A DNA stretch of 64,000 bases from an uncultured delta proteobacterium. Lineage in GTDB: Bacteria; Desulfobacterota; Binatia; UBA9968. The stretch covers positions 401,533 to 465,532 of the forward strand of contig CAVYDL010000005.1 of the NCBI GenBank assembly GCA_963767275.1, given 5' to 3'. The translations under genes were made by a program, and so were the position numbers. Numbering within the stretch: the first letter of the stretch is position 1; the number at the start of each line of letters is the position of its first letter. The notes beneath the pieces are model-generated. The model saw only the letters and a program-made list of their open reading frames with translations. It did no database searches and had not been told where the DNA came from. This document shows, one piece after another, positions 70-56,298 of this stretch.

Positions 70-402
70 TTGATCAGGATCTTTGCCGTGGAAACAAAGA
101 ATCTATTCGCCAATCTCGCGAACGCGCAGAGCGGTGAAGAATTTCTGACGCTATTCGACAATGCCAACGTCAAGATCGAACGCATCGTTTCGCATGCCAA
201 TCCGAGCCCGGCGGGTTTCTGGTACGATCAGGACGAAGACGAGTGGGTCGTGGTCTTACGGGGCTCGGCGACTTTAGAATTCGCCGGCGGCGAGCAAGTG
301 GAACTGCAAGCAGGCGATTACCTAACGATTGGCCGCCATGTGCAGCATCGCGTCGCCCGCACTAGCGAAGAGACGGTCTGGCTGGCGGTTCATTTAAAAT
401 GA
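70..402 (+). CDS. cupin domain protein (TTG start in track)
   Basis: 110 aa; small beta-barrel cupin-like sequence with a conserved His/Glu pattern near GDYLTIGRHVQHRV; start codon uncertain. Confidence 0.55.
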   Translation: MIRIFAVETKNLFANLANAQSGEEFLTLFDNANVKIERIVSHANPSPAGFWYDQDEDEWVVVLRGSATLEFAGGEQVELQAGDYLTIGRHVQHRVARTSEETVWLAVHLK

Positions 403-404
403 AT

Positions 405-510
405 CGCGGTTCAAGGTTCAAACGTTCAAGAGTGCAACGTCGGATGAAGCGATGTGGTTGCAGATTCCGAATCGTTGAACGCGTTGAACCTTGAACTTTT
501 GAACGATGTT
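405..510. repeat. GTTCAA-hexamer cluster repeat, inverted pair (REP-like) between convergent cupin and MFS genes
   Basis: Left arm gttcaa-g-gttcaa-ac-gttcaa; right arm reads ttgaac-gcg-ttgaac-c-ttgaac-ttt-ttgaac; together they can form a long hairpin. Confidence 0.8.
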
Positions 511-8684: not shown

Positions 8685-8965
8685 GTGACATCCTCCTGGG
8701 TTTTTGGCTACCGCCTTCGGGACTCGTAGCCTGCCGGCGCGCCGCAGAAGATGCAGCGATCGGCAATCTCGTGATCGACAATAGGTGCCAACAATAGCTG
8801 AAGCAACAGTAGGCACCGAGTTCGTATTCATACTCGAGATGGACGCTTCGACGGTTGTGTCTCTTGGCACCAATGCGCCGGTGCAGGACCGCTGAGTTAT
8901 GCAGCTTTGGCGGTCCGACAAACCTCGGATCACGGTCATGAGACTTCCGGTAGAGCTTTTCAGCC

Positions 8966-9052
8966 CCGTTCAAAGCGTACAGACCGTCCGAATCCGATTA
9001 ACGATTTGAACGGAGCGCAGCGATTGAACGGCTTGAACGATTTGAACGAATC
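8966..9052. repeat. GTTCAA/TTGAAC hexamer-cluster repeat
   Basis: One gttcaa at 8968-8973 followed by ttgaac-...-ttgaac-ggc-ttgaac-gat-ttgaac overlapping the 3' end of msrQ. Confidence 0.75.
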
Positions 9053-22044: not shown

Positions 22045-22080
22045 GCGTTCAAAACGTTCACGCCGTTCAAATCGTTGTTG
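22045..22080. repeat. GTTCAA hexamer-cluster repeat
   Basis: gttcaa-aac-gttcac-gcc-gttcaa-atc-gtt, followed by TTGCGAATTGCGAAC / ATTAATTGCGAAAAC motifs. Confidence 0.7.
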
Positions 22081-30490: not shown

Positions 30491-30928
30491 ATGGGACTAT
30501 TAAAAATCGAAGGGGTGACGCATTGGTCGATTCCGGTCAACAGCTTGGACGAATCGGAGAAGTTTTATGGCGATCTGCTCGGACTGAAGCATCTTGGCCG
30601 CCTTGGTAATTCCGGTATGTCATGCTTCAACGTTGGCGATCACAACATTCTTCTCTGCGAGCGCTCGAAGGAAGTGGACAAGGCCCATGTCGAGGAGCGC
30701 AACGTCCATCATTCGTTTACGGTGGCGCCGGAGACGATTCCCCAGGCGTGCAAGATTTTCAAAGAGAAGAACGTAAAGATCGAGGAGCTGTACTACCGCA
30801 AAGGCGGCTACTTCCCGGGACGGGAGCTTTACTTCTTCGATCCCAGCGGCAATCGGTTGGAATTGCGCGATCCGACCTGGAAGGCGGGGATGCCGGAACC
30901 ATCCTTCGACGAAGTCGCCGGTCAATAA
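30491..30928 (+). CDS. VOC family (glyoxalase/bleomycin resistance/dioxygenase) protein
   Basis: Beta-alpha-beta-beta-beta modules with His/Glu metal ligands. Confidence 0.65.
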   Translation: MGLLKIEGVTHWSIPVNSLDESEKFYGDLLGLKHLGRLGNSGMSCFNVGDHNILLCERSKEVDKAHVEERNVHHSFTVAPETIPQACKIFKEKNVKIEELYYRKGGYFPGRELYFFDPSGNRLELRDPTWKAGMPEPSFDEVAGQ

Positions 30929-30938
30929 CCGGCGACTT

Positions 30939-30970
30939 CGGTTCAAGAGTTCAAAGGTTCAAGGTTCAAT
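30939..30970. repeat. GTTCAA hexamer-cluster repeat
   Basis: gttcaa-ga-gttcaa-ag-gttcaa-g-gttcaa. Confidence 0.75.
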
Positions 30971-31044
30971 TAGATAAGACATCGGCTCCGCCGGTTCTGA
31001 CCCAAACAGATACGGCTTGGATGATGCGAATTGCTCGCATCATC

Positions 31045-31160
31045 CAAGCCGTTTGTACTGCGCGATTCTGCTAGCTACTTCTTCGCCGCGATCGGCACTC
31101 CGGGCAGCTTGGTTTTCTCGTCGTAATACTCTTGAGAAAATTCCGGGGTTTGCGCCGTGC
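31045..31160. repeat. Direct repeat copy A; contains a 3' fragment of an enoyl-CoA hydratase gene
   Basis: About 115 nt, roughly 95% identical to 33836..33946; minus strand encodes PEFSQEYYDEKTKLPGVPIAAKK*; preceded by a perfect 16-bp-stem hairpin at 31021-31057. Confidence 0.85.
31076..31150 (-). pseudogene. enoyl-CoA hydratase 3'-terminal gene remnant (about 24 codons)
   Basis: Identical C-terminal peptide to the intact gene at 33865..34707, with no upstream reading frame. Confidence 0.7.
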
Positions 31161-31219
31161 CTAGATTTTCTGAACGGCCAATAATCCTGGCAGGGAGTTC
31201 GAGCCGAGATTGTTATTAT

Positions 31220-32782
31220 TCATTTGTTGTCGACCGATTTGCTCCCTGGAGTCGGTGCGGAGGTATTGTCTTGAGTCATATCGCCTAAGTATTGAGGTAA
31301 CTCAATACCGGCCATGGCGGCGACGTCGTGCAGCGGTGGCAAACTTTTGATCAGCCCGGCGAGGAAATTGGCTGTCGAACTGCCATCCTTTCCATTGCTG
31401 GTGCCGGAATCCCAAACCGTAACCTTATCGATTTTGATACCTTTAATCGCCTCCACCTGCAGGTGGACGATTTGTTCGATCTTTTCCGTCATTAACAGAG
31501 TTGCCGCGGCTTTCGCGTCGCCGTTGCAGCCACGAACGAGTTCCAGGTAGCCGGCTGCTTTGCTGTCGAGAACCTTGCGGATGCCTTCGGCTTCGGCGTC
31601 GTACTTTAGCAAGATGGCGTCAGCCACGCCCTTGGCTTCGCGCCGGGTCTTCTCGGCTTCGGCTTCGGCGGCAATCTCGATCTTGCGTTTCTCGATCTCC
31701 TGGGGCACTACCTCGGCCGCGGTCAGTCGTTCTTGCTCGGCCTTGGCCTGGGCCTTTTGAATCTCCGCTTCGGCTTCGCGCTTTGCCACCTCGCCACGCT
31801 GTAATGATTCGGCCTGCTTGACGGCTAGTTCGGCGTTGTAGGCGGCAATATTGGCCTTAGCCATGTTCTCACCCGCGATGGCTTGAGCTTCCTGTCCCTG
31901 GATAAAAACCCGCCGGTCGGCTTCCGCCTGTTTTTTGCCCTTTTCCGCTTCGGCGACATTTACCGCTACGCGAATTTCCTTTTCCCGATTGGCGGTGGAT
32001 TCGCCGATGGTTGCCGTTGTCTCTTGCTGCTGGACGAAAATTCGCTGGTCGGCTTCAGCGCTCTTTTTCCCTTTCTCCGATTCGGCGACGTTTTCGGCGA
32101 CACGGATGGTTTTCTCGCGGGTCGCTTCGGCCTCACCGATGGCGCCCTTCTTGTCCTGTTCGGCGACGTCGACCTTGGCCTGGTTGATCGCTTCCGACGC
32201 CGCTTTTTTGCCGATTGAATCGATGTAGCCCGACTCGTCGGTGATGTCCGTAATGTTGACGTTGATCAAGTAGAGACCGATTTTGTTTAGCTCCGGCGCG
32301 ACGTTTTTGCGGATCGACTCGAGGAACGATTCGCGATCCTGGTTGATCTGCTCGATGGTGAGCGAAGCGACGGTCAGGCGGAGCTGGCCAAAGATAATCT
32401 CGCGGGCCATCTCTTCGATCTGGTTTTGGGTCTGATTGAGCAAGCGCTCGGCGGCGGCGGTCATGATCGTCGGATCGGTGCTGATGCCGACGGTAAAAGT
32501 GGAGGGAACATTGATCCGAATATTCTGCAGTGATAACGCCTTCTGGAGTGGAATGGGAATGGTCATCGGCGTTAGGCTCATGTAAGCGTAATCTTGGATC
32601 AGCGGCCAAATCAACGTGCCGCCGCCGTGGATACAATTTGCCGATTGTCCTTGTCCGACCTTGCCGTAAACTACGAGAATCTTATCCGAGGGACACCGTT
32701 TGTAGCGGCTGGCGAGGAAACTGATGGTCGATATGACCAAGATGAGGAGAGCGCCGATGGGGAGAATCCAGAAGTCAAACAT
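31220..32782 (-). CDS. flotillin-like SPFH/band-7 protein (YqiK/FloT-like)
   Basis: N-terminal TM; SPFH domain; long Ala/Glu/Lys-rich coiled-coil with internal EA repeats. Confidence 0.8.
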   Translation of the reverse strand: MFDFWILPIGALLILVISTISFLASRYKRCPSDKILVVYGKVGQGQSANCIHGGGTLIWPLIQDYAYMSLTPMTIPIPLQKALSLQNIRINVPSTFTVGISTDPTIMTAAAERLLNQTQNQIEEMAREIIFGQLRLTVASLTIEQINQDRESFLESIRKNVAPELNKIGLYLINVNITDITDESGYIDSIGKKAASEAINQAKVDVAEQDKKGAIGEAEATREKTIRVAENVAESEKGKKSAEADQRIFVQQQETTATIGESTANREKEIRVAVNVAEAEKGKKQAEADRRVFIQGQEAQAIAGENMAKANIAAYNAELAVKQAESLQRGEVAKREAEAEIQKAQAKAEQERLTAAEVVPQEIEKRKIEIAAEAEAEKTRREAKGVADAILLKYDAEAEGIRKVLDSKAAGYLELVRGCNGDAKAAATLLMTEKIEQIVHLQVEAIKGIKIDKVTVWDSGTSNGKDGSSTANFLAGLIKSLPPLHDVAAMAGIELPQYLGDMTQDNTSAPTPGSKSVDNK

Positions 32783-32794
32783 AGAAATGCCTTT

Positions 32795-33391
32795 CTAGTT
32801 AATTCGCTCAACCACCATAATATTTGCATCGACTCGGACGACACGGATCGGCGTGCCAGTGCGCAGCTCTGACCCATTGCTTTCAATGGCGTCGAATTCC
32901 CGCAGATGGTTTCGGAAATCGATGTTGACGCGTCCGGTGCCGTTTGCCGGAATGGTGAGATAGACGATGCCGGTGCTGCCGACGGCGTCCGCCGTCTGGA
33001 GGTTGCCGCTCGCCTGGAGGCCAGCGGCCCATTGAAAAAGCTTGCCAATGATCCAGACGGCGACCATTCCGGCGATGGCGGCGCCAGCAATGGATAGTGC
33101 CAATCCAGAGCGGCTTTGTCGGTAGAGAGCAAGGCCAACCAGACCGAACATCATTAAAAAGGCGCTGAAGCCGTGCAGAGAAAGGAAGCGGAACCCTACG
33201 TCGGAGTCGACGTGCTGGCCATCGAAATCGATGTCAGTGTCGATGCTGGCGCCAAAATGGCCGCCCATGAATTGGAGGATCAGCTTGACCACGACAAAAA
33301 AGCCGCCGATGAGGGCACAGCCGAGAAACGTATACTCTAGTCCGTTAAAACTGGAAAAGGCGTTTTCCACTGTAGTTCTCCTAAGCAACAA
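32795..33391 (-). CDS. NfeD-like membrane protein (YqiJ-like flotillin partner)
   Basis: Multi-TM N-terminus plus C-terminal OB-fold segment (TGIVYLTIPANGTGRVNI); immediately upstream of the flotillin gene on the same strand. Confidence 0.65.
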   Translation of the reverse strand: MLLRRTTVENAFSSFNGLEYTFLGCALIGGFFVVVKLILQFMGGHFGASIDTDIDFDGQHVDSDVGFRFLSLHGFSAFLMMFGLVGLALYRQSRSGLALSIAGAAIAGMVAVWIIGKLFQWAAGLQASGNLQTADAVGSTGIVYLTIPANGTGRVNIDFRNHLREFDAIESNGSELRTGTPIRVVRVDANIMVVERIN

Positions 33392-33835
33392 TTTCTGAAA
33401 TCACGAGCATGCCGCTTTCGGAATGAGCATTCGTCGACTGCCGAAGCCCTTGTGGCCGCGAGTTTGGGCGCGGATGATCCCTGACCTTATCGCCGCTTAA
33501 CCAGACACGTTTCGCGATTGTACCTGCTTGCAGCTTGGATTGTCTACGGACGAGATGGTAACTGTGTGGCTGCGAAAATAGATAAGGCGGGAAATCAATT
33601 GGAGATCCACTCAAGCGGGTAAGCCATGATTGAGAGCGTGTCTGCGTCTGGCTATCGCCGCAATGCTGACAGCTTATGGGTGATTGGACCGGCATTCCCG
33701 CGATCGGGTGAACCCCGGTAATTGTCCACGGGGAAGTGATCCAACGATTAGGGTGGCAACGGGCGAGGAGGAATCTGCTAGTAACGGATTGAAACGCACA
33801 GAATCGGCTTGAACGATCTGACCAGTCAAATCGTT

Positions 33836-33946
33836 CAAGCCGTTTGCACTCGCGATTCCGCTAGCTACTTCTTGGCCGCGATCGGCACTCCGGGCAGCTT
33901 GGTTTTCTCGTCGTAATACTCTTGAGAAAATTCCGGTTTGCGCCGT
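33836..33946. repeat. Direct repeat copy B (3' end of the intact enoyl-CoA hydratase gene)
   Basis: Matches 31045..31160; preceded by a hairpin ggcttgaacgat...atcgttcaagcc of the GTTCAA family. Confidence 0.85.
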
Positions 33947-34707
33947 TCGGAAAATGCGGCTGAACCTTCGTCGTAGTCTTTGCTGCTGCGCAGGTGGGCG
34001 TAGAATTCCCGGTGCACTTCGAAGCCCTTTTCCCATCCCTGGATCTCGTAGAGAAACTTGTCTTCGATGAACTCGATGGTGTGCTGGGCGATCAGCCGGC
34101 CGTTGCGGTTGATCGTCGTGGCCAGCTCGATGCAGTCGTCCAACAGCTTTTCCGGTTCGCAGATCTTCTGGACCAGACCTAAACGGAACGCCGTGTCGGC
34201 GTCGATCATTTGGCCGCTGAGGGCGAACCAGTAGGCCCAACCGCTGGGCAGCTGGGCGACATAGCTCGGCCACGCCGCCAAATGCGACCAGCGCACCTCG
34301 GAGCAACCGAACTTGGATGCGGGCACGCAATAGCGGATATGGCACGACAACGCCAAGCTAAAGCCGCCGCCGACCGCGTAGCCGTTGATGGCGGCGATGA
34401 TCGGTTTGTGCATCTGCAGCGGGCGCAGACTGGAGTAGCCGCGCGGGCCGGAGCGCGGTCCGGTCATTTCACCTCTGGCGAAGGCGATGTTTTCTTTCAA
34501 ATCGCCGCCGACGCAAAAAGCATCGGCAGTGCCGGTCAGGATAATCGACCAGACATCGTCGTCGGATTTAGCTTTTTGCCAACATTCGTCGAGCGCCCAG
34601 TAGAGGTCGCGGCTGATGGCATTTTTTTTCTCCGGGCGATTGAGCTTGATGATCGCGATATGGGGATCGCGCTTCTCGTAAATACATAGGGGTCCTGCTT
34701 CGGCCAT
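33865..34707 (-). CDS. enoyl-CoA hydratase/isomerase (crotonase family)
   Basis: Motifs AFCVGGDLKE, INGYAVGGG; start MAEAGPL at 34707 with GAGGAGGAA RBS. Confidence 0.85.
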   Translation of the reverse strand: MAEAGPLCIYEKRDPHIAIIKLNRPEKKNAISRDLYWALDECWQKAKSDDDVWSIILTGTADAFCVGGDLKENIAFARGEMTGPRSGPRGYSSLRPLQMHKPIIAAINGYAVGGGFSLALSCHIRYCVPASKFGCSEVRWSHLAAWPSYVAQLPSGWAYWFALSGQMIDADTAFRLGLVQKICEPEKLLDDCIELATTINRNGRLIAQHTIEFIEDKFLYEIQGWEKGFEVHREFYAHLRSSKDYDEGSAAFSERRKPEFSQEYYDEKTKLPGVPIAAKK

Positions 34708-34817
34708 GTGTTCCTCCTCTTGGAAGTGGAAAATTGACAATGGAAAATTGAAAATGTCGGAGCGGTGCTAAGCTTAAGCGGATTCGTTTTCAATTCTCAA
34801 TTTTTAATTTTCAATTG

Positions 34818-36026
34818 TTAATAGAGCACCTTCTCTTCGTCCAATTTTTTGATTTGGTCGTCGCTGAGACCGAGCAAGTTACGAGCGATCTCGTGGGTAT
34901 GCTCGCCCATGAGCGGGGCGACACCGCGGACTTTTCCCGGCGTCAACGACAGGCGCATCGGGACGTTTTCAGTGACGACATCGCCGGCCTCGGGCTCGGT
35001 CATGTTGACGAGAAAACCGGTGGCGGCGTATTGCTTGTCGTTCTTGAACTGGTCTTCGACATCCTGCACCACGGCGGCACAGACGTCGACGCCTTGGACC
35101 AGTTCCATTACTTCGTAGGGATCGTGCTGCAGCGTCCAGTCGGTCACCCACTTGTCGAGCTCGTCTTTGTGGCGCACCCGTTGCCAGTGGGTGGCGAAAT
35201 TGGCGCTGCGCTTGAGCCCTGATTTTTCCACCAGGCCGGCAAAGCGTTCCCACTCGTCCTGCGTATAGGCGGCGATCACGCACCAGCGATCATTGCCTTT
35301 GCATTGGTAGGGTCCGTAGGGCGAGGCGACGAGACTGCGGTTGCCTTCGGGCTGGGGCTCGCGCTTGTTGACGGTGTATTCGAGATAACGCGGTCCGAGC
35401 AGGGCGGCACCGATCTCCTGCTGGGCGTTGTCGATCCACTGGCCGCGGCCGGTCTTTTTTCTTTCCATCAGGGCTAGGACGACGCCGAAGGCGCCGGTGA
35501 CGCCGCCCATGAAGTCGGGATGCTGGGTGCGCGGTTCGGCGGTGGCCGTGGTCGCGCCGGGGTAGTTCCACAAATAAGTCGTCGCCATGGTGTTGCCGAC
35601 GTTGGGACCGTAGGTGAGATCGGTGGCGTGGGGCCCGGAGCAGCCCATGCCTTTGACGCGGATCAAGATCATGCGCGGATTGATCATTTGAAGGTCGGGC
35701 CAATTGAGGCCCCACTTTTCCAAGATGCCCAGCCCGAAATTTTCCACCAGCACGTCGGACTTTTTCACCAACTCTTTGACTAGATCGCGGCCCTTGGCAG
35801 TCTGCATGTTGACCGTGAAAGATTTCTTGCCCCGTTGCAGCTTCATGAAGTCGGGCTTCTTGTTCCACAGCTTGGGATCTTCGCCGCGATGGCCATCGCC
35901 GCGCAGACGGGTCTCGCAGCGGATCACCTCCGCGCCAAATTCACAGAGCACCCGCGCGACAGTGGGGCCGGCGGCGCCGGTGGTAAGTTCGATAACGCGA
36001 ATGCCTTCAAGGGGTAATTGGCTCAT
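34818..36026 (-). CDS. CoA-transferase family III (CaiB/BaiF) protein
   Basis: N-terminal GIRVIELTTGAAGP Rossmann-like motif; interlocked family III architecture. Confidence 0.85.
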   Translation of the reverse strand: MSQLPLEGIRVIELTTGAAGPTVARVLCEFGAEVIRCETRLRGDGHRGEDPKLWNKKPDFMKLQRGKKSFTVNMQTAKGRDLVKELVKKSDVLVENFGLGILEKWGLNWPDLQMINPRMILIRVKGMGCSGPHATDLTYGPNVGNTMATTYLWNYPGATTATAEPRTQHPDFMGGVTGAFGVVLALMERKKTGRGQWIDNAQQEIGAALLGPRYLEYTVNKREPQPEGNRSLVASPYGPYQCKGNDRWCVIAAYTQDEWERFAGLVEKSGLKRSANFATHWQRVRHKDELDKWVTDWTLQHDPYEVMELVQGVDVCAAVVQDVEDQFKNDKQYAATGFLVNMTEPEAGDVVTENVPMRLSLTPGKVRGVAPLMGEHTHEIARNLLGLSDDQIKKLDEEKVLY

Positions 36027-36143
36027 AAAATATTCACCTGCTGGTTAAATGGTTGGAGTGATGGAGTGGTGGATAATGGAGTGTTGGTCGGAACTGGAAC
36101 CCATCACTCCGATACTTCAGTCCTCCAGCTCTCCAATTCTTTT

Positions 36144-37349
36144 TCAGATCACTCCCTCGGCTTGCAGGGCGACCAGGTCGTCCGTGGTCATGCCGAGATC
36201 GCCGATGTAGATGTCCCGGTTATGCTCGCCCAAGAGCGGCGCGGGGCGGAAGATGCCGCCGGGTGTTTCCATCAGCAGCGGCACCGGGCCGAATTGTTTA
36301 TATTTGCCGACTACCGGATGCTCCATGTCGACAAACAAGCCGCGCGCCTTGGTCTGTTCCATCTCGACGAATTCGCCGGCGGTATTGATCGGGGTAACGG
36401 CGATGCGGCGCTTTTGGCCTTCTTCGTAAAGTTCTTCCTTGGTATAGCGCGCGCAGAACTCGGCGACGGCGCCGACGACGATTTCCGGGTGTTTACGCCG
36501 GTACGCCATCTTTTCGAATTCCGGGCCGGAGATCGACGGCGGGCTGCCCATCCACTCGACCAGGCGGCGCCATTGTTCGACGGGTATGATAAAAATGCGC
36601 GCGTAGCCGTTCTTGGTTTTGTAAGGATCGTAGAGGTCGGTCTCTTCGCCCTTGCGCGACGCGCGCGCCGGTTTGTCGCCGGTGTAACCGTAGTTGGGAA
36701 TAAAATAGCCGGCGATATGGCCGCCGCATTCATGCATCGATACGTCGATATGCTGGCCCTTGCCGCTGTCGAGGCGGTGGTACAGCGCCACGGCGATGCC
36801 GAAGGCGCCATAGGTCGACGCCATGCCGTAAGCGATCTCACCCGGCGGCTGCAGCGGCGGCTCTCCCGGTTCGCCGGCGAGATAGAGCAAGTTGCCCAGC
36901 GCGATGCCGGCCATGTCGTTGGCTTTGTAGTCTTTCCATGGGCCGTTTTGGCCGAAGGGCGTGATCGAAGCGACGATCAATGCCGGATTGACCGCGCTCA
37001 GATCCTGATAAGTCAGCGCCAATTCCTTGGCGCGCGCCGGCCGATAGGTTTCGATGATCACATCGGCTTTTTTGCACAGTTCCAGCAGTATCGCCCGGCC
37101 GTCGGGTTTTTCGACGTCGAGGGTAATGCCGCGTTTGTTGGTGTTGAAGTGAAGAAAGTACAGACTCTTTTCCGGATGCGCCTGATCGTCTTTGAACGGC
37201 GGCACGCGGCGCGATTCGTCGCCGCCAGGCGCTTCGATTTTGATCACATCGGCGCCCATGTCGGCCAAGAGCTTGGTGCAGTGCAGACTGAGCGGCCCGC
37301 CTAGGTCGAGCACGCGGTAACCGGTCAACGGTCCTGTTGGTGTTGCCAT
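36144..37349 (-). CDS. CoA-transferase family III (CaiB/BaiF) protein
   Basis: GYRVLDLGGPLS...; tandem paralog of the previous gene. Confidence 0.85.
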   Translation of the reverse strand: MATPTGPLTGYRVLDLGGPLSLHCTKLLADMGADVIKIEAPGGDESRRVPPFKDDQAHPEKSLYFLHFNTNKRGITLDVEKPDGRAILLELCKKADVIIETYRPARAKELALTYQDLSAVNPALIVASITPFGQNGPWKDYKANDMAGIALGNLLYLAGEPGEPPLQPPGEIAYGMASTYGAFGIAVALYHRLDSGKGQHIDVSMHECGGHIAGYFIPNYGYTGDKPARASRKGEETDLYDPYKTKNGYARIFIIPVEQWRRLVEWMGSPPSISGPEFEKMAYRRKHPEIVVGAVAEFCARYTKEELYEEGQKRRIAVTPINTAGEFVEMEQTKARGLFVDMEHPVVGKYKQFGPVPLLMETPGGIFRPAPLLGEHNRDIYIGDLGMTTDDLVALQAEGVI

Positions 37350-38794: not shown

Positions 38795-39778
38795 ATGAAA
38801 ACAAAAATTTTGATATTGACCGCTATCGCATTATTTTGCGCCGCGGAATTGGCGCTTGCCGCCGATAAGCTGCGGGTCGCCTACGTCAGTCCGAGCGTCT
38901 CGCAGTCCCTGCCTTGGATTGCCAAGGAGCTGGGCATTCTCGCCAAGCACGATTTGGCCGTGGAAAATCTGTTGATCACCGGCAGCCCGCGTTTGGTCCA
39001 GGCGCTGATCGCCGGCGATGTCGATGTGATTTTCGCCGGCGTGACGGCGATGACCCGCGCGCGCATGCGCGGCGCGGACGTGGCGATACTCGGCGCTTCG
39101 GCGAATCTTTCCAGTCAAAAACTGATGGTGAGCCGCACATCGAAAATTCGCCGCCTCGAAGAAGTTAAGGGCGCGGTCATAGGCGTCTCGCAGTACGGTT
39201 CCGAGGCGGACACCTTCGCGCGCAACGCTCTGGCCAAAGTAAGCTTGAAGCCGGACAAAGACGTGACGATCATTCAGCTCGGCGGCCACCCCCAGGTCGC
39301 CGCCGCCTTGGCGGCGGGGAAACTCGAGGCGGGAATACTCGGCGGTTTGGCAATTCTCACCGCTGAGAGGTCGGGCGCGCGCTTCATCACCAGCGCCGCC
39401 GATCTGAAAATCCTCTCGCCCTCGGGCACCTTCGCCACCACGCGCGGCTATATTCAGCGCAAGCGCAGCGTCGTCGAGCGGCTGACCCGCTCCTTTGTCG
39501 AGGCGATTCACTATTTGAAGACCAATCGCAGCGGCGCGATTGTCTTGCTGCAACGATATCTTGGCGGCTTGAGCGCCGACGAGGCGAGTTATCTCTATGA
39601 CGAACAGGTCGAGTTTTTGGAGCGCATTCCCGGCCCCAATGAGAAAGCGCTCGCCGCGGTGCTCGAACGGGAGAGCGATCCCAAGATCAAGAGCCTGGCC
39701 ATCGGGGATTTTATCGACCCAAGTTTTTTTCGCGAGATTGAAAAGAGCGGATTGATCGAGCAACTGTATCGGAAGTAG
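38795..39778 (+). CDS. NMT1/THI5-like (SsuA/TauA-type) substrate-binding protein
   Basis: Signal peptide; paralog of 41114..42211. Confidence 0.75.
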   Translation: MKTKILILTAIALFCAAELALAADKLRVAYVSPSVSQSLPWIAKELGILAKHDLAVENLLITGSPRLVQALIAGDVDVIFAGVTAMTRARMRGADVAILGASANLSSQKLMVSRTSKIRRLEEVKGAVIGVSQYGSEADTFARNALAKVSLKPDKDVTIIQLGGHPQVAAALAAGKLEAGILGGLAILTAERSGARFITSAADLKILSPSGTFATTRGYIQRKRSVVERLTRSFVEAIHYLKTNRSGAIVLLQRYLGGLSADEASYLYDEQVEFLERIPGPNEKALAAVLERESDPKIKSLAIGDFIDPSFFREIEKSGLIEQLYRK

Positions 39779-41113: not shown

Positions 41114-42211
41114 ATGAGAAATACGGTGTTGATTATTGCCTTTCTGGTTTTCGTTTCATTTGCCACACCTGCGGTTGCCGCCGACAAGCTGCGCGTCGCC
41201 TTCGTCAGCCCGAGCGTCGCCCTGTCGCTGCCTTGGGTGGCCAAGGAGCTGGGAATTTTGGCCAAGCATGATTTGAGCGCCGAGATTTTGCTGATTACCG
41301 GCAGCCCGCGCCTGGTCCAATCGCTGATCGCCGGCGACGTCGACGTCGTATTTGCCGGCGTCACGGCGCTTACTCGGGCCCGTCTGCGCGGCGCGGAGGT
41401 GGCGATACTCGGCGCTTCGGCCAACCTTTCGAGCCAGAAGTTGATGGTCATTCGCAGCTCGAAGGTGCGCCGGCTCGAAGACTTGAAAGGCGCGACCATC
41501 GGCGTGTCGCAGTTCGGTTCCGAAGCCGACACCTTTACGCGCAACGCGCTGGCGACGGTGGGACTTCGGCCGGAACGCGATGTGACGATACTGCAGCTCG
41601 GCGGCCATCAGCAGGTTGCGGCCGCCATGGCGGCGGGAAAATTGGAAGCCGGCGGTTTGGGCGGTCTCGCGGCGCTCACTGCGGAGCGCGCCGGGGCGCG
41701 GCTTCTCAGCAGTGCTGCGGAGCTAAAGATTCTTTCGCCTGCCGGCACATTCGCCACCACCCGTGGATATATTCAGCGCAAGCGCAGCGTCGTCGAGCGC
41801 TTGATGCGCTCGTTCGTCGAAGCGATTCACTATCTGAAAACCAATCGCAGCGGCTCCATCGCGTTGCTGCAAAAGTATCTGGGCGGATTGAGCGCCGAGG
41901 AGGCAGCTTATCTTTACGACGAGCAGGCCGATCTGTTGGAACGTCTGCCGGCGCCCAACGAAAAGGCGCTTCAGGCCGTGCTCGGGCGCGAGAACGATGC
42001 TAAGTTGAAAACGATGTCGCCGGCGGATTTCATCGACGCGAGCTTTTTTAGAGAGATTGAAAAGAGCGGCTTGGTCGAGCAGTTGTACCGGAAATGGATT
42101 TTAGCAAATTGGCGGCGTAACGTGCCACCAGAAGATGTCTCGCGCAACGGGCGCCAAGGACGCAAAGGTAATGACTTCAGAGAAGCTAGATCACGGGGAA
42201 TCCGGATGTAG
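41114..42211 (+). CDS. NMT1/THI5-like substrate-binding protein with about 40-aa C-terminal extension from stop-codon loss
   Basis: Collinear with 38795..39778 to ...EQLYRK; the TAG in the paralog is TGG here. Confidence 0.75.
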   Translation: MRNTVLIIAFLVFVSFATPAVAADKLRVAFVSPSVALSLPWVAKELGILAKHDLSAEILLITGSPRLVQSLIAGDVDVVFAGVTALTRARLRGAEVAILGASANLSSQKLMVIRSSKVRRLEDLKGATIGVSQFGSEADTFTRNALATVGLRPERDVTILQLGGHQQVAAAMAAGKLEAGGLGGLAALTAERAGARLLSSAAELKILSPAGTFATTRGYIQRKRSVVERLMRSFVEAIHYLKTNRSGSIALLQKYLGGLSAEEAAYLYDEQADLLERLPAPNEKALQAVLGRENDAKLKTMSPADFIDASFFREIEKSGLVEQLYRKWILANWRRNVPPEDVSRNGRQGRKGNDFREARSRGIRM

Positions 42212-42320
42212 CGGCAGGATTTCCGAAACCTGCCCTCTTAGAATCGTCGCAAATGCAAAGCTGATTCGAAGTTGACGAAGGAATATTAACCCGGCCTCCA
42301 AAACATGAAGGGAGAATAAC

Positions 42321-54414: not shown

Positions 54415-55293
54415 ATGGCCGACAGCGACGAGATTCTCTATGACAAGCAACGTCAGGGCGTGCTGATCACGCTCAATCGTCCGGCGGCGATGAACGCGGC
54501 GACCCGGCCGATGTTGCACAAGCTCGGCGCGGCGCTCGACGATGCCGTCGCCGATCCGCAAGTGCGCGCCATTGTCCTGACCGGCTCGGGACGGGGCTTT
54601 TCCACCGGCATGGACCAGGGCGGCGGCGCGGCGCACCGGCGCGACATGGACTGGCCCTACGGCGTGCGCGCCGGTGAGAACGCGGCGGACTTTATCGACA
54701 ACTACCGCGGCCATGAGGCGATCTTCATGCGCATCTTCGAATGCTCCAAGCCGGTCATTGGTGCGATCAACGGTTGGGCCATGGGCGTGGGCTCATGGAT
54801 GTCGTTGTTCACCCATATCACCATCGCCTCGGAGCAGGCGGTGTTCGCCCAGCCGGAAGTGCGTCACGGCTCCAACACCGGATTTATCTGGACACTGCTC
54901 GCCGGCTTCAAAGACGGCCTGCGTTACTCCCTCACCGGCGACCATATCGACGCCCAGGAGGCGTTGCGCATCGGCCTGGTCAACCAAGTCGTGCCCGGCG
55001 ACCGGCTGCTCGACGAGTGTTTTGCGATTGTCGAACGGATCGCCATGGTGCCGCCGGAAACGGTCAAGCTCAATCTCCAACTGGCCACCATGGGCATGCA
55101 GATGATGGGCTTCAAAGACGCCTGGACGATGGATGGACAATTGTCGGCGGCGGCGCACACGCTGCTGCGCGAAGAGTTGCGCCGTCCGCTCGATGAAAAA
55201 CGAAAGTCCGAAGGAACCAAAGCTTACTTGCAGATGCGCGATGGGCCGTTTCAACCGGAGCCGTTTGGGCCGCGGGCGAAGCGGCGCGATTAA
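54415..55293 (+). CDS. enoyl-CoA hydratase/isomerase family protein
   Basis: Crotonase fold; motifs VLTGSGRGFSTGMD, INGWAMGVG. Confidence 0.8.
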   Translation: MADSDEILYDKQRQGVLITLNRPAAMNAATRPMLHKLGAALDDAVADPQVRAIVLTGSGRGFSTGMDQGGGAAHRRDMDWPYGVRAGENAADFIDNYRGHEAIFMRIFECSKPVIGAINGWAMGVGSWMSLFTHITIASEQAVFAQPEVRHGSNTGFIWTLLAGFKDGLRYSLTGDHIDAQEALRIGLVNQVVPGDRLLDECFAIVERIAMVPPETVKLNLQLATMGMQMMGFKDAWTMDGQLSAAAHTLLREELRRPLDEKRKSEGTKAYLQMRDGPFQPEPFGPRAKRRD

Positions 55294-55302
55294 GCGCGCC
55301 GC

Positions 55303-55410
55303 TGGTTCAAAACGTTCAAGCCGTTCAAATCGTTCAAAATGTCGGAGAAGCGGGCTCCGATAACCTCCGAGACGACTTGAACGATTTGAACTTTTTGAAC
55401 GGCTTGAACT
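55303..55410. repeat. GTTCAA/TTGAAC hexamer-cluster inverted repeat (best copy)
   Basis: gttcaa-aac-gttcaa-gcc-gttcaa-atc-gttcaa, about 45 nt spacer, then ttgaac-gat-ttgaac-ttt-ttgaac-ggc-ttgaac. Confidence 0.85.
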
Positions 55411-55434: not shown

Positions 55435-56298
55435 GTGGCCAACTTCGAAACGATTCTGTTCGAAAAACAGCGCTGCGGCGTATTGATCACCTTCAATCGG
55501 CCGGCGCTGCGCAATGCGCTCAACCAGCGCTTGAAAGACGAGTTGCGGGCGGCCTTGGAGCTGGCGCGCGATGATGAAGCGATTCGTGCCGTGGTGCTGA
55601 CCGGCGCGGGCGGGGTGTTTTCCAGCGGCGACGATATGAACGAGTCAGTAGCCGGCAAGCCGGCGTGGCCCTATGCCATCGCCGAGGGCAGCGCCCTGGC
55701 GGATGTTTATAATCGGCTGCGCGACCGGGCCCGGCAGGAAAAGATCGACGAACAGCTTTATCGCTGGCAGTTTCCCAAGCCGATCATCGCGGCGGTCAGC
55801 GGTTGGTGTCTCGGTTCGGCTTCGTGGCTGGCGTTGTCGTCTCATCTGACGATTGCCGCCGATGACGCCGTCTTCGGTCAGCCGCAGGTGCGCCATAGCG
55901 ATGGCGCGGATTTTATCTGGACCGTTTTGGGCAAGTTCAAGAACGCTCTGCGCTATGGCCTCACCGGTGATCCTGTCGACGCCAAGGAAGCGTTGCGCTT
56001 GCGCCTGGTCAACAAAGTTGTGGCGAAAGACCGGCTGCTCGACGAATGTTTCCAGCTGGTCGAGCGTATTGCCCTGGTGCCGCCGGAGACCGTAAAGATC
56101 AATTTGCAAAAAGCCACTTCCGGGTACGAGATGATGGGTCTCGGCAAGGCCTGGTCGCTCAATGCCGAACTGTCGGCGATGGCACAGTTGTCGCGCCGGG
56201 AGGAGTTTTATCAGCCGTTGGAAGCGGCGCGCGAGCACGGCGGTTGGAAAGCTTTTTTTGCCGCCCGCGATGCGCCGTTTCGCGATCAAAAGAAATAA
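55435..56298 (+). CDS. enoyl-CoA hydratase/isomerase family protein (tandem paralog)
   Basis: Motifs VLTGAGGVFSSGDD, VSGWCLGSASW. Confidence 0.8.
   Translation: MANFETILFEKQRCGVLITFNRPALRNALNQRLKDELRAALELARDDEAIRAVVLTGAGGVFSSGDDMNESVAGKPAWPYAIAEGSALADVYNRLRDRARQEKIDEQLYRWQFPKPIIAAVSGWCLGSASWLALSSHLTIAADDAVFGQPQVRHSDGADFIWTVLGKFKNALRYGLTGDPVDAKEALRLRLVNKVVAKDRLLDECFQLVERIALVPPETVKINLQKATSGYEMMGLGKAWSLNAELSAMAQLSRREEFYQPLEAAREHGGWKAFFAARDAPFRDQKK

What the first reader, a model, noticed from the sequence alone, without database searches (positions are those of the whole stretch)
31045..33946. Flotillin-NfeD module flanked by 115-bp direct repeats that duplicate the 3' end of an enoyl-CoA hydratase gene
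31045-31160 and 33836-33946 are about 95% identical. Copy B is the true 3' end of the crotonase gene 33865..34707. Copy A is an orphan fragment encoding the same last 23 residues plus stop. The flotillin and NfeD genes lie exactly between the two copies. Each copy is immediately preceded by a GTTCAA-family hairpin. The hairpin is a perfect 16-bp stem at 31021-31057. This looks like an insertion or recombination event that carried or duplicated the gene end. The repeat hairpins may be the recombination substrate.
Basis: seen in the sequence. Interest (0 to 1): 0.75.

Follow-up and report, generated by a model that had tools for sequence, protein, structure and literature searches.

The report
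Strain-variable flotillin operon insertion
A 2.8-kb two-gene membrane-scaffold operon (NfeD + flotillin) has been inserted behind an enoyl-CoA hydratase gene in some strains of an uncultured soil bacterium (class Binatia). The incoming DNA carried its own copy of that gene's end, which is why the gene end is present twice. It is a real but fairly ordinary strain-specific insertion.

Summary
The repeat is real. Copy A (31039-31158) and copy B (33830-33946) are about 95% identical, share an identical 62-nt core, and bracket NfeD-flotillin exactly.

Evidence that it is a genuine, derived insertion:
- The filled arrangement occurs in three independent assemblies, and short-read contigs support it.
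- Nine contigs of the same species carry the empty site (crotonase, hairpin, then the VOC gene).
- None of 42 related Binatia species has flotillin or NfeD at this site.

Both ends of the inserted DNA carry crotonase-3'-like sequence found only in filled alleles. One end has a different terminator hairpin (hpB) and spacer. The other end has 12 crotonase-like bases plus a 2-nt insertion. This is the footprint of a single crossover (Campbell / ends-in type) inside the shared 62-nt core. It rebuilt an intact crotonase gene and left an orphan 23-codon fragment.

The cassette is ten times less diverged between two carrier strains than its flanks are, so it spread recently within the population.

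No integrase or transposase lies in the cassette or anywhere in the 64-kb window, so the recombinase is unknown.

The hairpins are conserved terminators of a dispersed GTTCAA palindrome family. They are not the crossover sites.

Interest is modest: a new example of a known kind of event.

The parts
30491..30928 (+). VOC/glyoxalase-family gene. It is the native convergent neighbour of the crotonase gene in empty-site strains.
   Evidence: Pfam Glyoxalase 2.8e-09. It lies directly next to the crotonase gene in L001 and 8 other contigs.
30940..30969 (.). Four GTTCAA units in the native spacer between the VOC stop and hairpin A.
   Evidence: Sequence. The same units occur in L077.
31012..31052 (.). 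Hairpin A (hpA): the species' native crotonase/VOC terminator hairpin, with a perfect 18-bp stem. It now lies downstream of flotillin.
   Evidence: centroid -34.4 kcal/mol, z -7.1. All nine empty-site alleles read through the hairpin, plus the partial contig L071 (which ends inside it), carry the hpA type right after the crotonase gene.
31075..31158 (-). Copy A: an orphan crotonase 3' fragment. It holds the stop codon (31075-31077), 23 codons (31078-31146), a 2-nt insertion within 31145-31148, and 10 further homologous bases to 31158.
   Evidence: The 2-nt insertion is present in all three filled alleles and in no empty allele.
31085..31146 (.). The 62-nt core that is 100% identical between the copies (copy A side). 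This is the inferred crossover interval.
   Evidence: It is bounded by the substitution at 31084/33874 and the indel at 31145-31148.
31159..31219 (.). Cassette-specific spacer J between the end of crotonase homology and the flotillin stop codon.
   Evidence: It matches only filled alleles L002 and L051. No terminator of its own was detected.
31220..32782 (-). Flotillin (SPFH2 / YqiK / FloT-type) gene, 520 aa.
   Evidence: Band_7 3.6e-30 and Flot 4.2e-06. Thousands of homologues at about 80% identity or more.
32795..33391 (-). NfeD-like partner gene. The longest ORF is 198 aa. Homologues are 191 aa, which would place the start at 33370.
   Evidence: NfeD C-terminal domain 1.2e-04, 22.6 bits, below Pfam's 29.1 cut-off. 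Homologues are named 'NfeD family protein' or 'membrane protein implicated in regulation of membrane protease activity'. It ends 12 nt upstream of flotillin.
33392..33796 (.). Cassette-specific upstream region P, with a sigma70-like promoter match (TAGACA-18-TACAAT, 33546 to 33517 on the minus strand).
   Evidence: 1 match found against 1.6 expected, so weak evidence. The region matches only filled alleles, apart from 118 nt shared with L062.
33802..33845 (.). Hairpin B (hpB): a terminator hairpin of the consensus 'GCTTGAACGATTTG' type, brought in with the cassette. It now terminates the crotonase gene.
   Evidence: -35 kcal/mol, z -5.2. It is found only in filled alleles within the species. 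Its stem matches that of other Binatia species.
33830..33946 (-). Copy B: the functional crotonase 3' end (stop codon 33865-33867), followed downstream by the cassette-derived spacer. It contains the identical core 33875-33936.
33865..34707 (-). Enoyl-CoA hydratase (crotonase) gene, intact. Its protein is identical in filled and empty strains.
   Evidence: ECH_1 4.8e-39. An exact protein match lies on the empty-site contig.

Best explanation
The feature is a strain-variable 2.79-kb insertion in one Binatia species. It carries an NfeD-flotillin operon with its own upstream region.

The ancestral locus reads: crotonase, terminator hairpin hpA, then the convergent VOC gene.

The incoming DNA came from a related lineage and already carried a crotonase-3'-end segment. 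One arm held the post-stop spacer and a different terminator hairpin (hpB). The other arm held a decayed piece of the crotonase end, with a 2-nt insertion.

A single reciprocal exchange took place between this segment and the chromosomal crotonase 3' end, inside the 62 bases where the two are identical. This is Campbell-type, or 'ends-in', integration. The result has three parts:
(i) An intact crotonase gene whose last bases, spacer and terminator now come from the cassette (copy B + hpB).
(ii) The operon.
(iii) An orphan 23-codon crotonase fragment joined to the native hairpin hpA (copy A). hpA now serves as the terminator for flotillin and VOC.

The same repeats allow precise loss of the cassette.

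Shown: the insertion is real and derived, both arms are foreign, the cassette is polymorphic and spread recently, and no recombinase gene is present. Inferred: the single-crossover topology, RecA-type homologous recombination as the agent (no recombinase gene was found), and the terminator roles of the hairpins.
For: Empty sites:
- L001 is 99.66% identical to the window over 20 kb. The two alignment blocks overlap by 117 bp exactly at the repeat.
- Eight further contigs with the identical VOC protein are also empty.
- Empty and filled alleles co-occur in samples ERZ25039485 and ERZ25039511.

Polarity:
- 42 species loci share the CoA-transferase, CoA-transferase, crotonase gene order. None has flotillin or NfeD within 7 kb, and 11 have VOC directly downstream.

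Real, not an artefact:
- L051 spans both junctions collinearly (14.9 kb, 98.5%). L002 covers the left junction. Illumina contigs L052 and L053 are 100% identical across part of the cassette.

Foreign arms:
- Every empty allele has hpA after the crotonase gene.
- hpB, the 'CGAGTGC' spacer and the 2-nt insertion next to the 31158/31159 junction occur only in filled alleles.
- The hpB stem matches the consensus of other species. The inner stem of hpA resembles L010, whose VOC is 96.5% identical.

Recent spread:
- Window versus L051 shows 1 substitution in the 2692-nt cassette (0.04%) against 36 in 9045 nt of coding flanks (0.40%), Poisson P = 2.6e-4.

No recombinase or transposon features:
- Pfam scans of the cassette and of all larger ORFs of the window found none. 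The precomputed Pfam table for +-10 kb of L001 lists none.
- The cassette ends carry no terminal inverted repeats.

Composition:
- Cassette GC is 55.1% against 57.4% for the window, which fits a related donor.
Against: - No donor genome with crotonase, hpB and NfeD-flotillin as its native order was found. The closest flotillin elsewhere (96% aa, 89% nt, L003) sits in a different context, and its homology ends at the CDS.
- No circular or excised form can be seen in assemblies.
- How a small circle, or a linear piece with both ends in the same homology, would arise and enter a cell is unexplained.
- 62-120 bp is short for efficient RecA-dependent exchange.
- A trans-acting site-specific recombinase cannot be excluded, because only 64 kb of the genome was visible.
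- The low-divergence tract shared by the window and L051 could be up to about 3.6 kb (30934-34565). Ordinary allelic replacement by flanking homology could therefore explain the spread between strains. That would leave only the original event to the proposed mechanism.
Confidence: 0.6

Rival explanations
1. The repeats are attL/attR sites of a site-specific (tyrosine or serine) recombinase encoded elsewhere in the genome. The cassette would then be an integrase-less, cis-mobilizable remnant (CIME-like) that such an enzyme moves in trans.
For: - The architecture is that of islands which insert into a gene's 3' end and rebuild it: direct repeats with an identical core, diverged arms and an intact target gene.
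- CIMEs are defined as elements that lost their integration genes but kept attL and attR (PMC5704250).
- The cassette spread recently within the population.
Against: - No integrase, excisionase, relaxase or pseudogene remnant lies in the cassette, in the 64-kb window, or within +-10 kb in L001.
- None of 42 other species carries any other insertion with a crotonase-end duplication at this site, so it does not behave as a recurrent att site.
- No match was found in plasmid or viral collections.
Confidence: 0.15
2. Homology-facilitated illegitimate recombination of a linear fragment. One end recombined homologously within the crotonase gene. The other end (just downstream of the flotillin stop) was joined illegitimately to the chromosome at crotonase position -107, which duplicated the gene end as a by-product.
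For: - One junction (31158/31159) is an abrupt loss of homology.
- The other side grades into host sequence.
- The mechanism needs no recombinase gene.
Against: - The 2-nt insertion 12 nt inside the homology on the copy A side is specific to filled alleles. The 12 bases beyond it are therefore best read as cassette-borne crotonase-like sequence, not host sequence.
- The donor's crotonase tract would have to be identical to the host's for at least 100 nt, then differ sharply in the next 60 nt.
Confidence: 0.12
3. The GTTCAA-family hairpins (REP-like palindromes) are the recombination substrate or target. This could work through a REP-associated or hairpin-recognising enzyme, or through template switching at palindromes.
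For: - The hairpins belong to a dispersed palindrome family: 23 matches to the stem motif against 7.9 expected, with long examples at 400-510, 8960-9050 and 55305-55410, and copies in other loci.
- One strain (L081) has the hairpin loop inverted, which shows that palindrome-mediated events happen here.
Against: - Neither junction of foreign and native DNA lies in a hairpin. Cassette-specific sequence begins at the post-stop spacer, about 5-10 nt upstream of the hpB stem, and the other junction is 107 nt inside the gene.
- The two hairpins differ at about 25% of their positions.
- A hairpin of the same family sits after the crotonase gene in the related species inspected, none of which has an insertion.
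Confidence: 0.05
4. The filled arrangement is ancestral for the species and arose by in-place duplication. Empty strains would then be deletions between the repeats, and hpA would have diverged from hpB where it sits.
For: - Recombination between the repeats would give exactly the observed empty site.
- The window's flanks are closer to the empty strain L001 than to the filled strain L051.
Against: - Outgroup species are all empty.
- Nine empty alleles from at least five samples, including diverged ones (L077, L081), all carry hpA.
- Cassette divergence between carriers is ten times lower than flank divergence.
- In-place decay cannot leave 62 nt identical next to a hairpin that is 25% diverged.
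- The inner stem of hpA has counterparts at the same position in L010 and L032.
Confidence: 0.04
5. Assembly artefact: a chimeric join or collapsed repeat in a long-read metagenome assembly.
For: - Several contigs break exactly at the repeat (L002 at 33850, L052 at 33865, L053 at 33873).
- The long-read contigs contain frameshifts.
Against: - Three independent assemblies give the same structure.
- L051 crosses both junctions.
- Illumina contigs are 100% identical over hairpin B, the promoter region, NfeD and part of flotillin, and run into the crotonase stop codon.
Confidence: 0.01

Closest known systems
Integrative genomic islands / ICEs / IMEs that insert into the 3' end of a gene and rebuild it (attL/attR direct repeats)
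   Same: Direct repeats contain the target gene's 3' end. The target ORF is kept intact by element-borne sequence. An orphan gene-end fragment lies at the far border. An identical core is flanked by diverged arms. Strains of one species differ by presence or absence.
   Different: There are no integrase, excision or transfer genes. The element is only 2.8 kb and carries two cellular genes. The target is a crotonase gene that other cargo does not reuse in 42 related species.
CIME (cis-mobilizable element; PMC5704250)
   Same: It is flanked by att-like repeats and lacks recombination and transfer genes.
   Different: CIMEs are decayed ICEs or IMEs whose att sites are recognised by a related element's integrase. 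Here no related element or integrase is known, and there are no decay remnants.
Campbell-type / ends-in homologous integration (insertion-duplication, as with suicide plasmids)
   Same: A single crossover in a short cloned gene segment gives an insert flanked by a duplication of exactly that segment. Each copy is a hybrid of incoming and resident sequence. The event is reversible by recombination between the repeats.
   Different: This would be a natural event in an uncultured bacterium. The nature and origin of the circular or ends-in intermediate are unknown.
NfeD2-SPFH2 (p-flotillin) operons such as yqiJK of E. coli and yuaF-floT of B. subtilis (PMC2636767)
   Same: An NfeD-like membrane protein gene lies immediately upstream of a flotillin of about 510-550 aa with Band_7 and Flot domains. 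The family has a patchy distribution and reported frequent horizontal transfer.
   Different: Nothing unusual in the proteins themselves. Here the operon is caught as a within-species insertion with defined borders.
REP/BIME-type extragenic palindromes
   Same: The hairpins are dispersed intergenic palindromes built from a short unit (GTTCAA). They often lie between convergent genes and look like terminators.
   Different: The family is not described (no Rfam match). No associated RAYT-type gene was seen in the window. It has no demonstrated role in this insertion.

Membership tests
Integrase-driven integrative element (genomic island/ICE/IME) | Flanking direct repeats (attL/attR) that include the target gene's end | tested here: met
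   117-120-nt repeats with a 62-nt identical core. The crotonase gene is intact.
Integrase-driven integrative element (genomic island/ICE/IME) | Integrase/recombinase gene inside the element | tested here: not met
   The cassette holds only NfeD and flotillin. The 104-aa ORF in the upstream region has no Pfam hit. No recombinase was found in the window.
Integrase-driven integrative element (genomic island/ICE/IME) | Excised circular form / attP junction | not testable with these tools
   This needs raw reads or PCR. Assemblies show only the integrated and empty states.
CIME (cis-mobilizable element) | att-like repeats kept, integration and transfer genes lost | tested here: met
   The definition is from PMC5704250.
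CIME (cis-mobilizable element) | The repeats are substrates of an integrase from a related ICE/IME that uses the same site | tested here: inconclusive
   No other element occupies this site in 42 species loci and there is no crotonase-end duplication elsewhere. Whole genomes were not available.
Insertion sequence / transposon | Transposase gene, terminal inverted repeats, short identical target-site duplication | tested here: not met
   No transposase. The best end-to-end inverted match scores 5 against a shuffle mean of 6.7. The repeats are about 120 nt and not identical.
Integron gene cassette | attC recombination site at the cassette end, promoterless ORF, nearby IntI/attI | tested here: not met
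   No integrase in the window. The cassette has a 400-bp upstream region of its own. The hairpins are the locus's conserved terminators, also present in species without any insertion.
NfeD2-SPFH2 (bacterial flotillin) operon | Flotillin with SPFH/Band_7 plus Flot domain | tested here: met
   Band_7 105.8 bits and Flot 27.3 bits (cut-off 27).
NfeD2-SPFH2 (bacterial flotillin) operon | NfeD-family partner gene immediately upstream in the same orientation | tested here: inconclusive
   NfeD C-terminal domain scores 22.6 bits, below Pfam's cut-off of 29.1. However, the homologues are named NfeD family, and the NfeD-then-flotillin gene pair is conserved in about 15 of the unrelated loci fetched.
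REP/BIME-like extragenic palindromes (for the hairpins) | Short palindromic unit, intergenic, many dispersed copies per genome | tested here: met
   23 motif matches against 7.9 expected in 64 kb. Long palindromes lie at 400-510, 8960-9050, 22045-22080 and 55305-55410, and copies occur in other Binatia loci.

The most novel reading that the evidence does not exclude
The cassette may be a minimal, recombinase-free mobile operon that 'homes' to one chromosomal site. It would carry a captured copy of the target gene's last ~100 bases plus that gene's REP-like terminator. Repeated cycles of excision and ends-in integration through that arm would move it among Binatia strains. The part of each arm that the host never refreshes would slowly decay, which would explain the 2-nt insertion and the degenerate bases next to junction 31158/31159. 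A more exotic version has an unknown enzyme that recognises the GTTCAA palindromes doing the work in trans.
Probability: 0.12. Interest if true: 0.6.

Novelty: new member of a known kind. Interest (0 to 1): 0.33.

Why it matters
It is a clean natural example of how a small accessory operon enters and leaves a chromosome in an uncultured soil lineage. Filled and empty alleles occur in the same communities, and both junctions are readable base by base. It shows that bacterial flotillin operons, already known for patchy distribution, can move as a tiny unit without any mobility gene. It also supplies a concrete pair of alleles for asking what flotillin contributes in Binatia. It does not reveal a new mechanism or a new kind of element.

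Tried and rejected
- Rfam scan of the whole window: no family.
- Exact look-up of the window's flotillin protein: not on record. The cluster representative P0001 led to L002.
- Donor search: the closest flotillin and NfeD relatives (L003-L008, L054-L070) share only coding sequence with the cassette, apart from 118 nt upstream of NfeD shared with L062. None has crotonase or hpB next to it.
- JGI metagenome scan with NfeD: only 65-67% relatives.
- Plasmid collection: three short 67-74% flotillin hits.
- Viral contigs: no exact hpB match.
- Other crotonase-end duplications in 43 loci: only L051, the filled allele of the same species.
- Terminal inverted repeats at the cassette ends: none.
- In-place tandem duplication: rejected. 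There is no flotillin within 10 kb in the empty strain, and hpA and hpB differ too much.
- Apparent small inversion or extra homology in 31159-31180 (a GTTCAG match in register): too weak to use, so treated only as suggestive.
- Integrase or transposase hunt by Pfam over 46 ORFs of the window: none found.
Full report
**Observation.**
- The repeat finder reports an 86-nt direct repeat (31061-31146 and 33851-33936, 98%). A 21-nt extension lies one base out of register.
- The pairwise alignment extends high-identity homology to 31039-31158 and 33830-33946. That is 3 substitutions, a 1-nt indel and a 2-nt indel, about 95%.
- Below that level the similarity continues through both hairpins and about 15-20 nt of their tails (about 31007 and 33797).
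- The perfectly identical core is 31085-31146 = 33875-33936 (62 nt).
- Copy B is the real end of the crotonase CDS 33865-34707 (ECH_1).
- Copy A keeps the stop codon and the last 23 codons, with one synonymous change. A 2-nt insertion at 31145-31148 then puts it out of frame.
- Flotillin (31220-32782) and an NfeD-like gene (32795-33391), both on the minus strand, fill the space between the copies.
Hairpin B is at 33802-33845. Both are very stable: -34 to -39 kcal/mol, z -5 to -7.

**Empty site.** The exact crotonase protein is encoded on ENA contig ERZ25039516:contig_213 (L001). There the crotonase gene is followed after 145 bp by the convergent VOC/glyoxalase gene, with no flotillin or NfeD.
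- L001 is 99.66% identical to the window over 20 kb.
- The two alignment blocks (window 42096-33830 and 31158-22984) overlap by 117 bp in L001, exactly the repeat.
- A look-up with the VOC protein returned ten places. Eight are empty and two are filled.
- Both alleles are present in sample ERZ25039485 (contig_12563 and contig_28766 empty, contig_28765 filled). Both are also present in ERZ25039511 (contig_779 empty, contig_36303 filled).

**Not an artefact.**
- Contig_28765 (L051/L076) is collinear with the window across crotonase, hpB, NfeD, flotillin, copy A, hpA and VOC (14.9 kb, 98.5%).
- Contig_36303 (L002/L080) covers the left junction.
- Two Illumina-derived contigs (L052, L053) are 100% identical from inside flotillin through NfeD, the upstream region and hpB into the crotonase stop codon. 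They stop where the repeat becomes ambiguous.

**Polarity.** A scan of one genome per GTDB species gave 42 loci, mostly titled Candidatus Binatia or 'uncultured delta proteobacterium'. All share the CoA-transferase, CoA-transferase, crotonase gene order.
- A tblastn map finds flotillin or NfeD in none of them within 7 kb.
- VOC lies directly downstream in 11 of them.
- The empty arrangement is therefore ancestral, and the window carries a derived insertion.
- None of these loci has any other duplication of the crotonase end.

**What the hairpins are.** All 17 related loci whose sequence after the crotonase stop codon was inspected have a hairpin there. Most share the stem consensus GCTTGAACGATTTG...ATCGTTCAAGC, and some species show compensatory variants.
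- The hairpin is thus a conserved terminator-like element between convergent genes.
- The same GTTCAA-unit palindromes are dispersed in the window: 23 motif matches against 7.9 expected, with long examples at 400-510, 8960-9050, 22045-22080 and 55305-55410. They also occur in other Binatia loci.
- This is a REP-like family with no Rfam entry.

**Which parts are foreign.** Within the species, all nine empty alleles read through the hairpin have hpA directly after the crotonase gene (L001/L073, L072, L074, L075, L077, L078, L079, L081). The partial contig L071 also starts hpA there and ends inside it.
- hpB, the spacer 'CGAGTGC' before it and the tail after it occur only in the three filled alleles.
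- At the other border, the 2-nt insertion 12 nt inside the homology is also present in all filled alleles and in no empty one.
- So both ends of the incoming DNA carried crotonase-end-like sequence.
- Copy B is host sequence up to the core, then cassette sequence. Copy A is cassette sequence up to the core, then host sequence.
- The two substitutions nearest the core (33874, 33859) also segregate among empty alleles, so they are not diagnostic.
- The hpB stem is of the type common in other species. The inner stem of hpA resembles L010, whose VOC is 96.5% identical. This fits hpA and VOC being native and hpB being imported from a related lineage.
- Cassette GC (55.1%) is close to that of the window (57.4%).

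**Mechanism.** This hybrid pattern is what a single reciprocal exchange produces between a chromosomal segment and a homologous segment on a circular molecule, or on an 'ends-in' linear one. It is Campbell-type integration, with the crossover somewhere in the 62 identical bases.
- It explains why the crotonase ORF is intact and why an orphan end remains.
- It explains why each gene set ends up with a terminator hairpin.
- It explains why recombination between the repeats would regenerate the empty site exactly.
- The recombinase is not identified. Neither the cassette, nor 46 scanned ORFs of the 64-kb window, nor +-10 kb in L001 encodes an integrase or transposase. There are also no terminal inverted repeats.
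- I therefore favour host homologous recombination. A trans-acting site-specific enzyme (a CIME-like situation) and a one-sided illegitimate join remain possible.
- The hairpins are not the crossover sites. They differ at about a quarter of their positions, cassette-specific sequence begins upstream of hpB, and the other junction is 107 nt inside the gene.

**Population behaviour.** A three-way alignment shows that the window's flanks are closest to the empty strain L001, while the cassette is shared with the more distant L051.
- Window versus L051 differ by 1 substitution in the 2692-nt cassette (0.04%).
- They differ by 36 substitutions in 9045 nt of coding flanks (0.40%); Poisson P = 2.6e-4.
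- The cassette has therefore moved between lineages of this species recently, rather than being inherited vertically and lost.
- The shared low-divergence tract is at most 30934-34565. The data do not distinguish re-integration through the repeats from replacement by short flanking homology.

**Cargo.** The genes are a standard NfeD-then-flotillin pair: Band_7 plus Flot domains, and an NfeD C-terminal domain below Pfam's threshold, with homologues named NfeD family.
- The flotillin is highly conserved, about 80% identical across many Desulfobacterota-like MAGs.
- Hinderhofer et al. (PMC2636767) describe such SPFH2/NfeD2 operons as present in about 20% of genomes, with evidence of frequent horizontal transfer.
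- The closest relatives outside this species share only coding sequence with the cassette, so no donor context was recovered.
- A sigma70-like match (33546 to 33517, minus strand) lies 125 nt upstream of NfeD. The scan is not above its background rate.

**Verdict.** The hairpin-substrate idea is not supported. This is a well-documented new example of a known kind of event: a small accessory operon flanked by a duplicated gene end, polymorphic in a natural population. Its only unusual aspect is the lack of any mobility gene.

Noticed in passing
window 400-510, 8960-9050, 22045-22080, 55305-55410; also L009 12833-12873, L014 932-988, L022 8403-8442: A dispersed family of intergenic palindromes built from GTTCAA units about 9 nt apart. 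An example is ggttcaaaacgttcaagccgttcaaatcgttcaa ... ttgaacgatttgaactttttgaacggcttgaac. The stem motif has 23 matches against 7.9 expected in the window. There is no Rfam family. It looks like a Binatia REP-like element, and in the examples inspected it lies in intergenic stretches.
   Followed up: partly
L081 (JGI 3300018432), hairpin after the crotonase gene, compared with window 31012-31052: In the crotonase orientation, L081 and L077 have the hairpin centre as GCGAATTGCTCGC, while the window's copy A and all other strains have GCGAGCAATTCGC. Only the inner part is inverted and the stems are the same. This is a flip of the palindrome centre between strains.
   Followed up: no
window 34729-34812: A second, A/T-rich imperfect inverted repeat made of GAAAATTGA-like units (26-nt arms, 85% complementary, 32 nt apart). 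It lies between the upstream CoA-transferase gene and the crotonase start, and could be an operator or promoter element.
   Followed up: no
window 42096-42302: An intergenic stretch of about 200 bp is non-homologous between the window (and L051) and the otherwise 99.7%-identical L001. This is a second strain-variable replacement in the same 20 kb.
   Followed up: no
window 35994-36381: A cluster of about 10 substitutions plus a 6-nt insertion (36069-36074) is private to the window (L001 = L051). It spans the junction of the two CoA-transferase genes and looks like a short recombination patch.
   Followed up: no
L051 10589-12067 (window 31360-31361): The flotillin gene of the filled allele in contig_28765 has a 2-nt deletion, so a 492-aa product was called. 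This is either a long-read error or the start of decay of the cargo.
   Followed up: no
L003 9777-11285 (GCA_030688735.1): The closest flotillin outside the species (96% aa, 89% nt) is in another Binatia MAG, beside a Gp49/HTH toxin-antitoxin pair, MerR and MutS. No NfeD was detected upstream, and its first ~80 nt are unrelated. The operon has evidently been rearranged there.
   Followed up: partly
window 38852-39774 vs 41171-42093; window-wide: The region is packed with paralogous solute-binding genes (NMT1/TctC/SBP families; two NMT1_2 paralogues are about 78% identical in nucleotides), family III CoA-transferases, and three crotonase genes (33865-34707, 54415-55293, 55435-56298).
   Followed up: no
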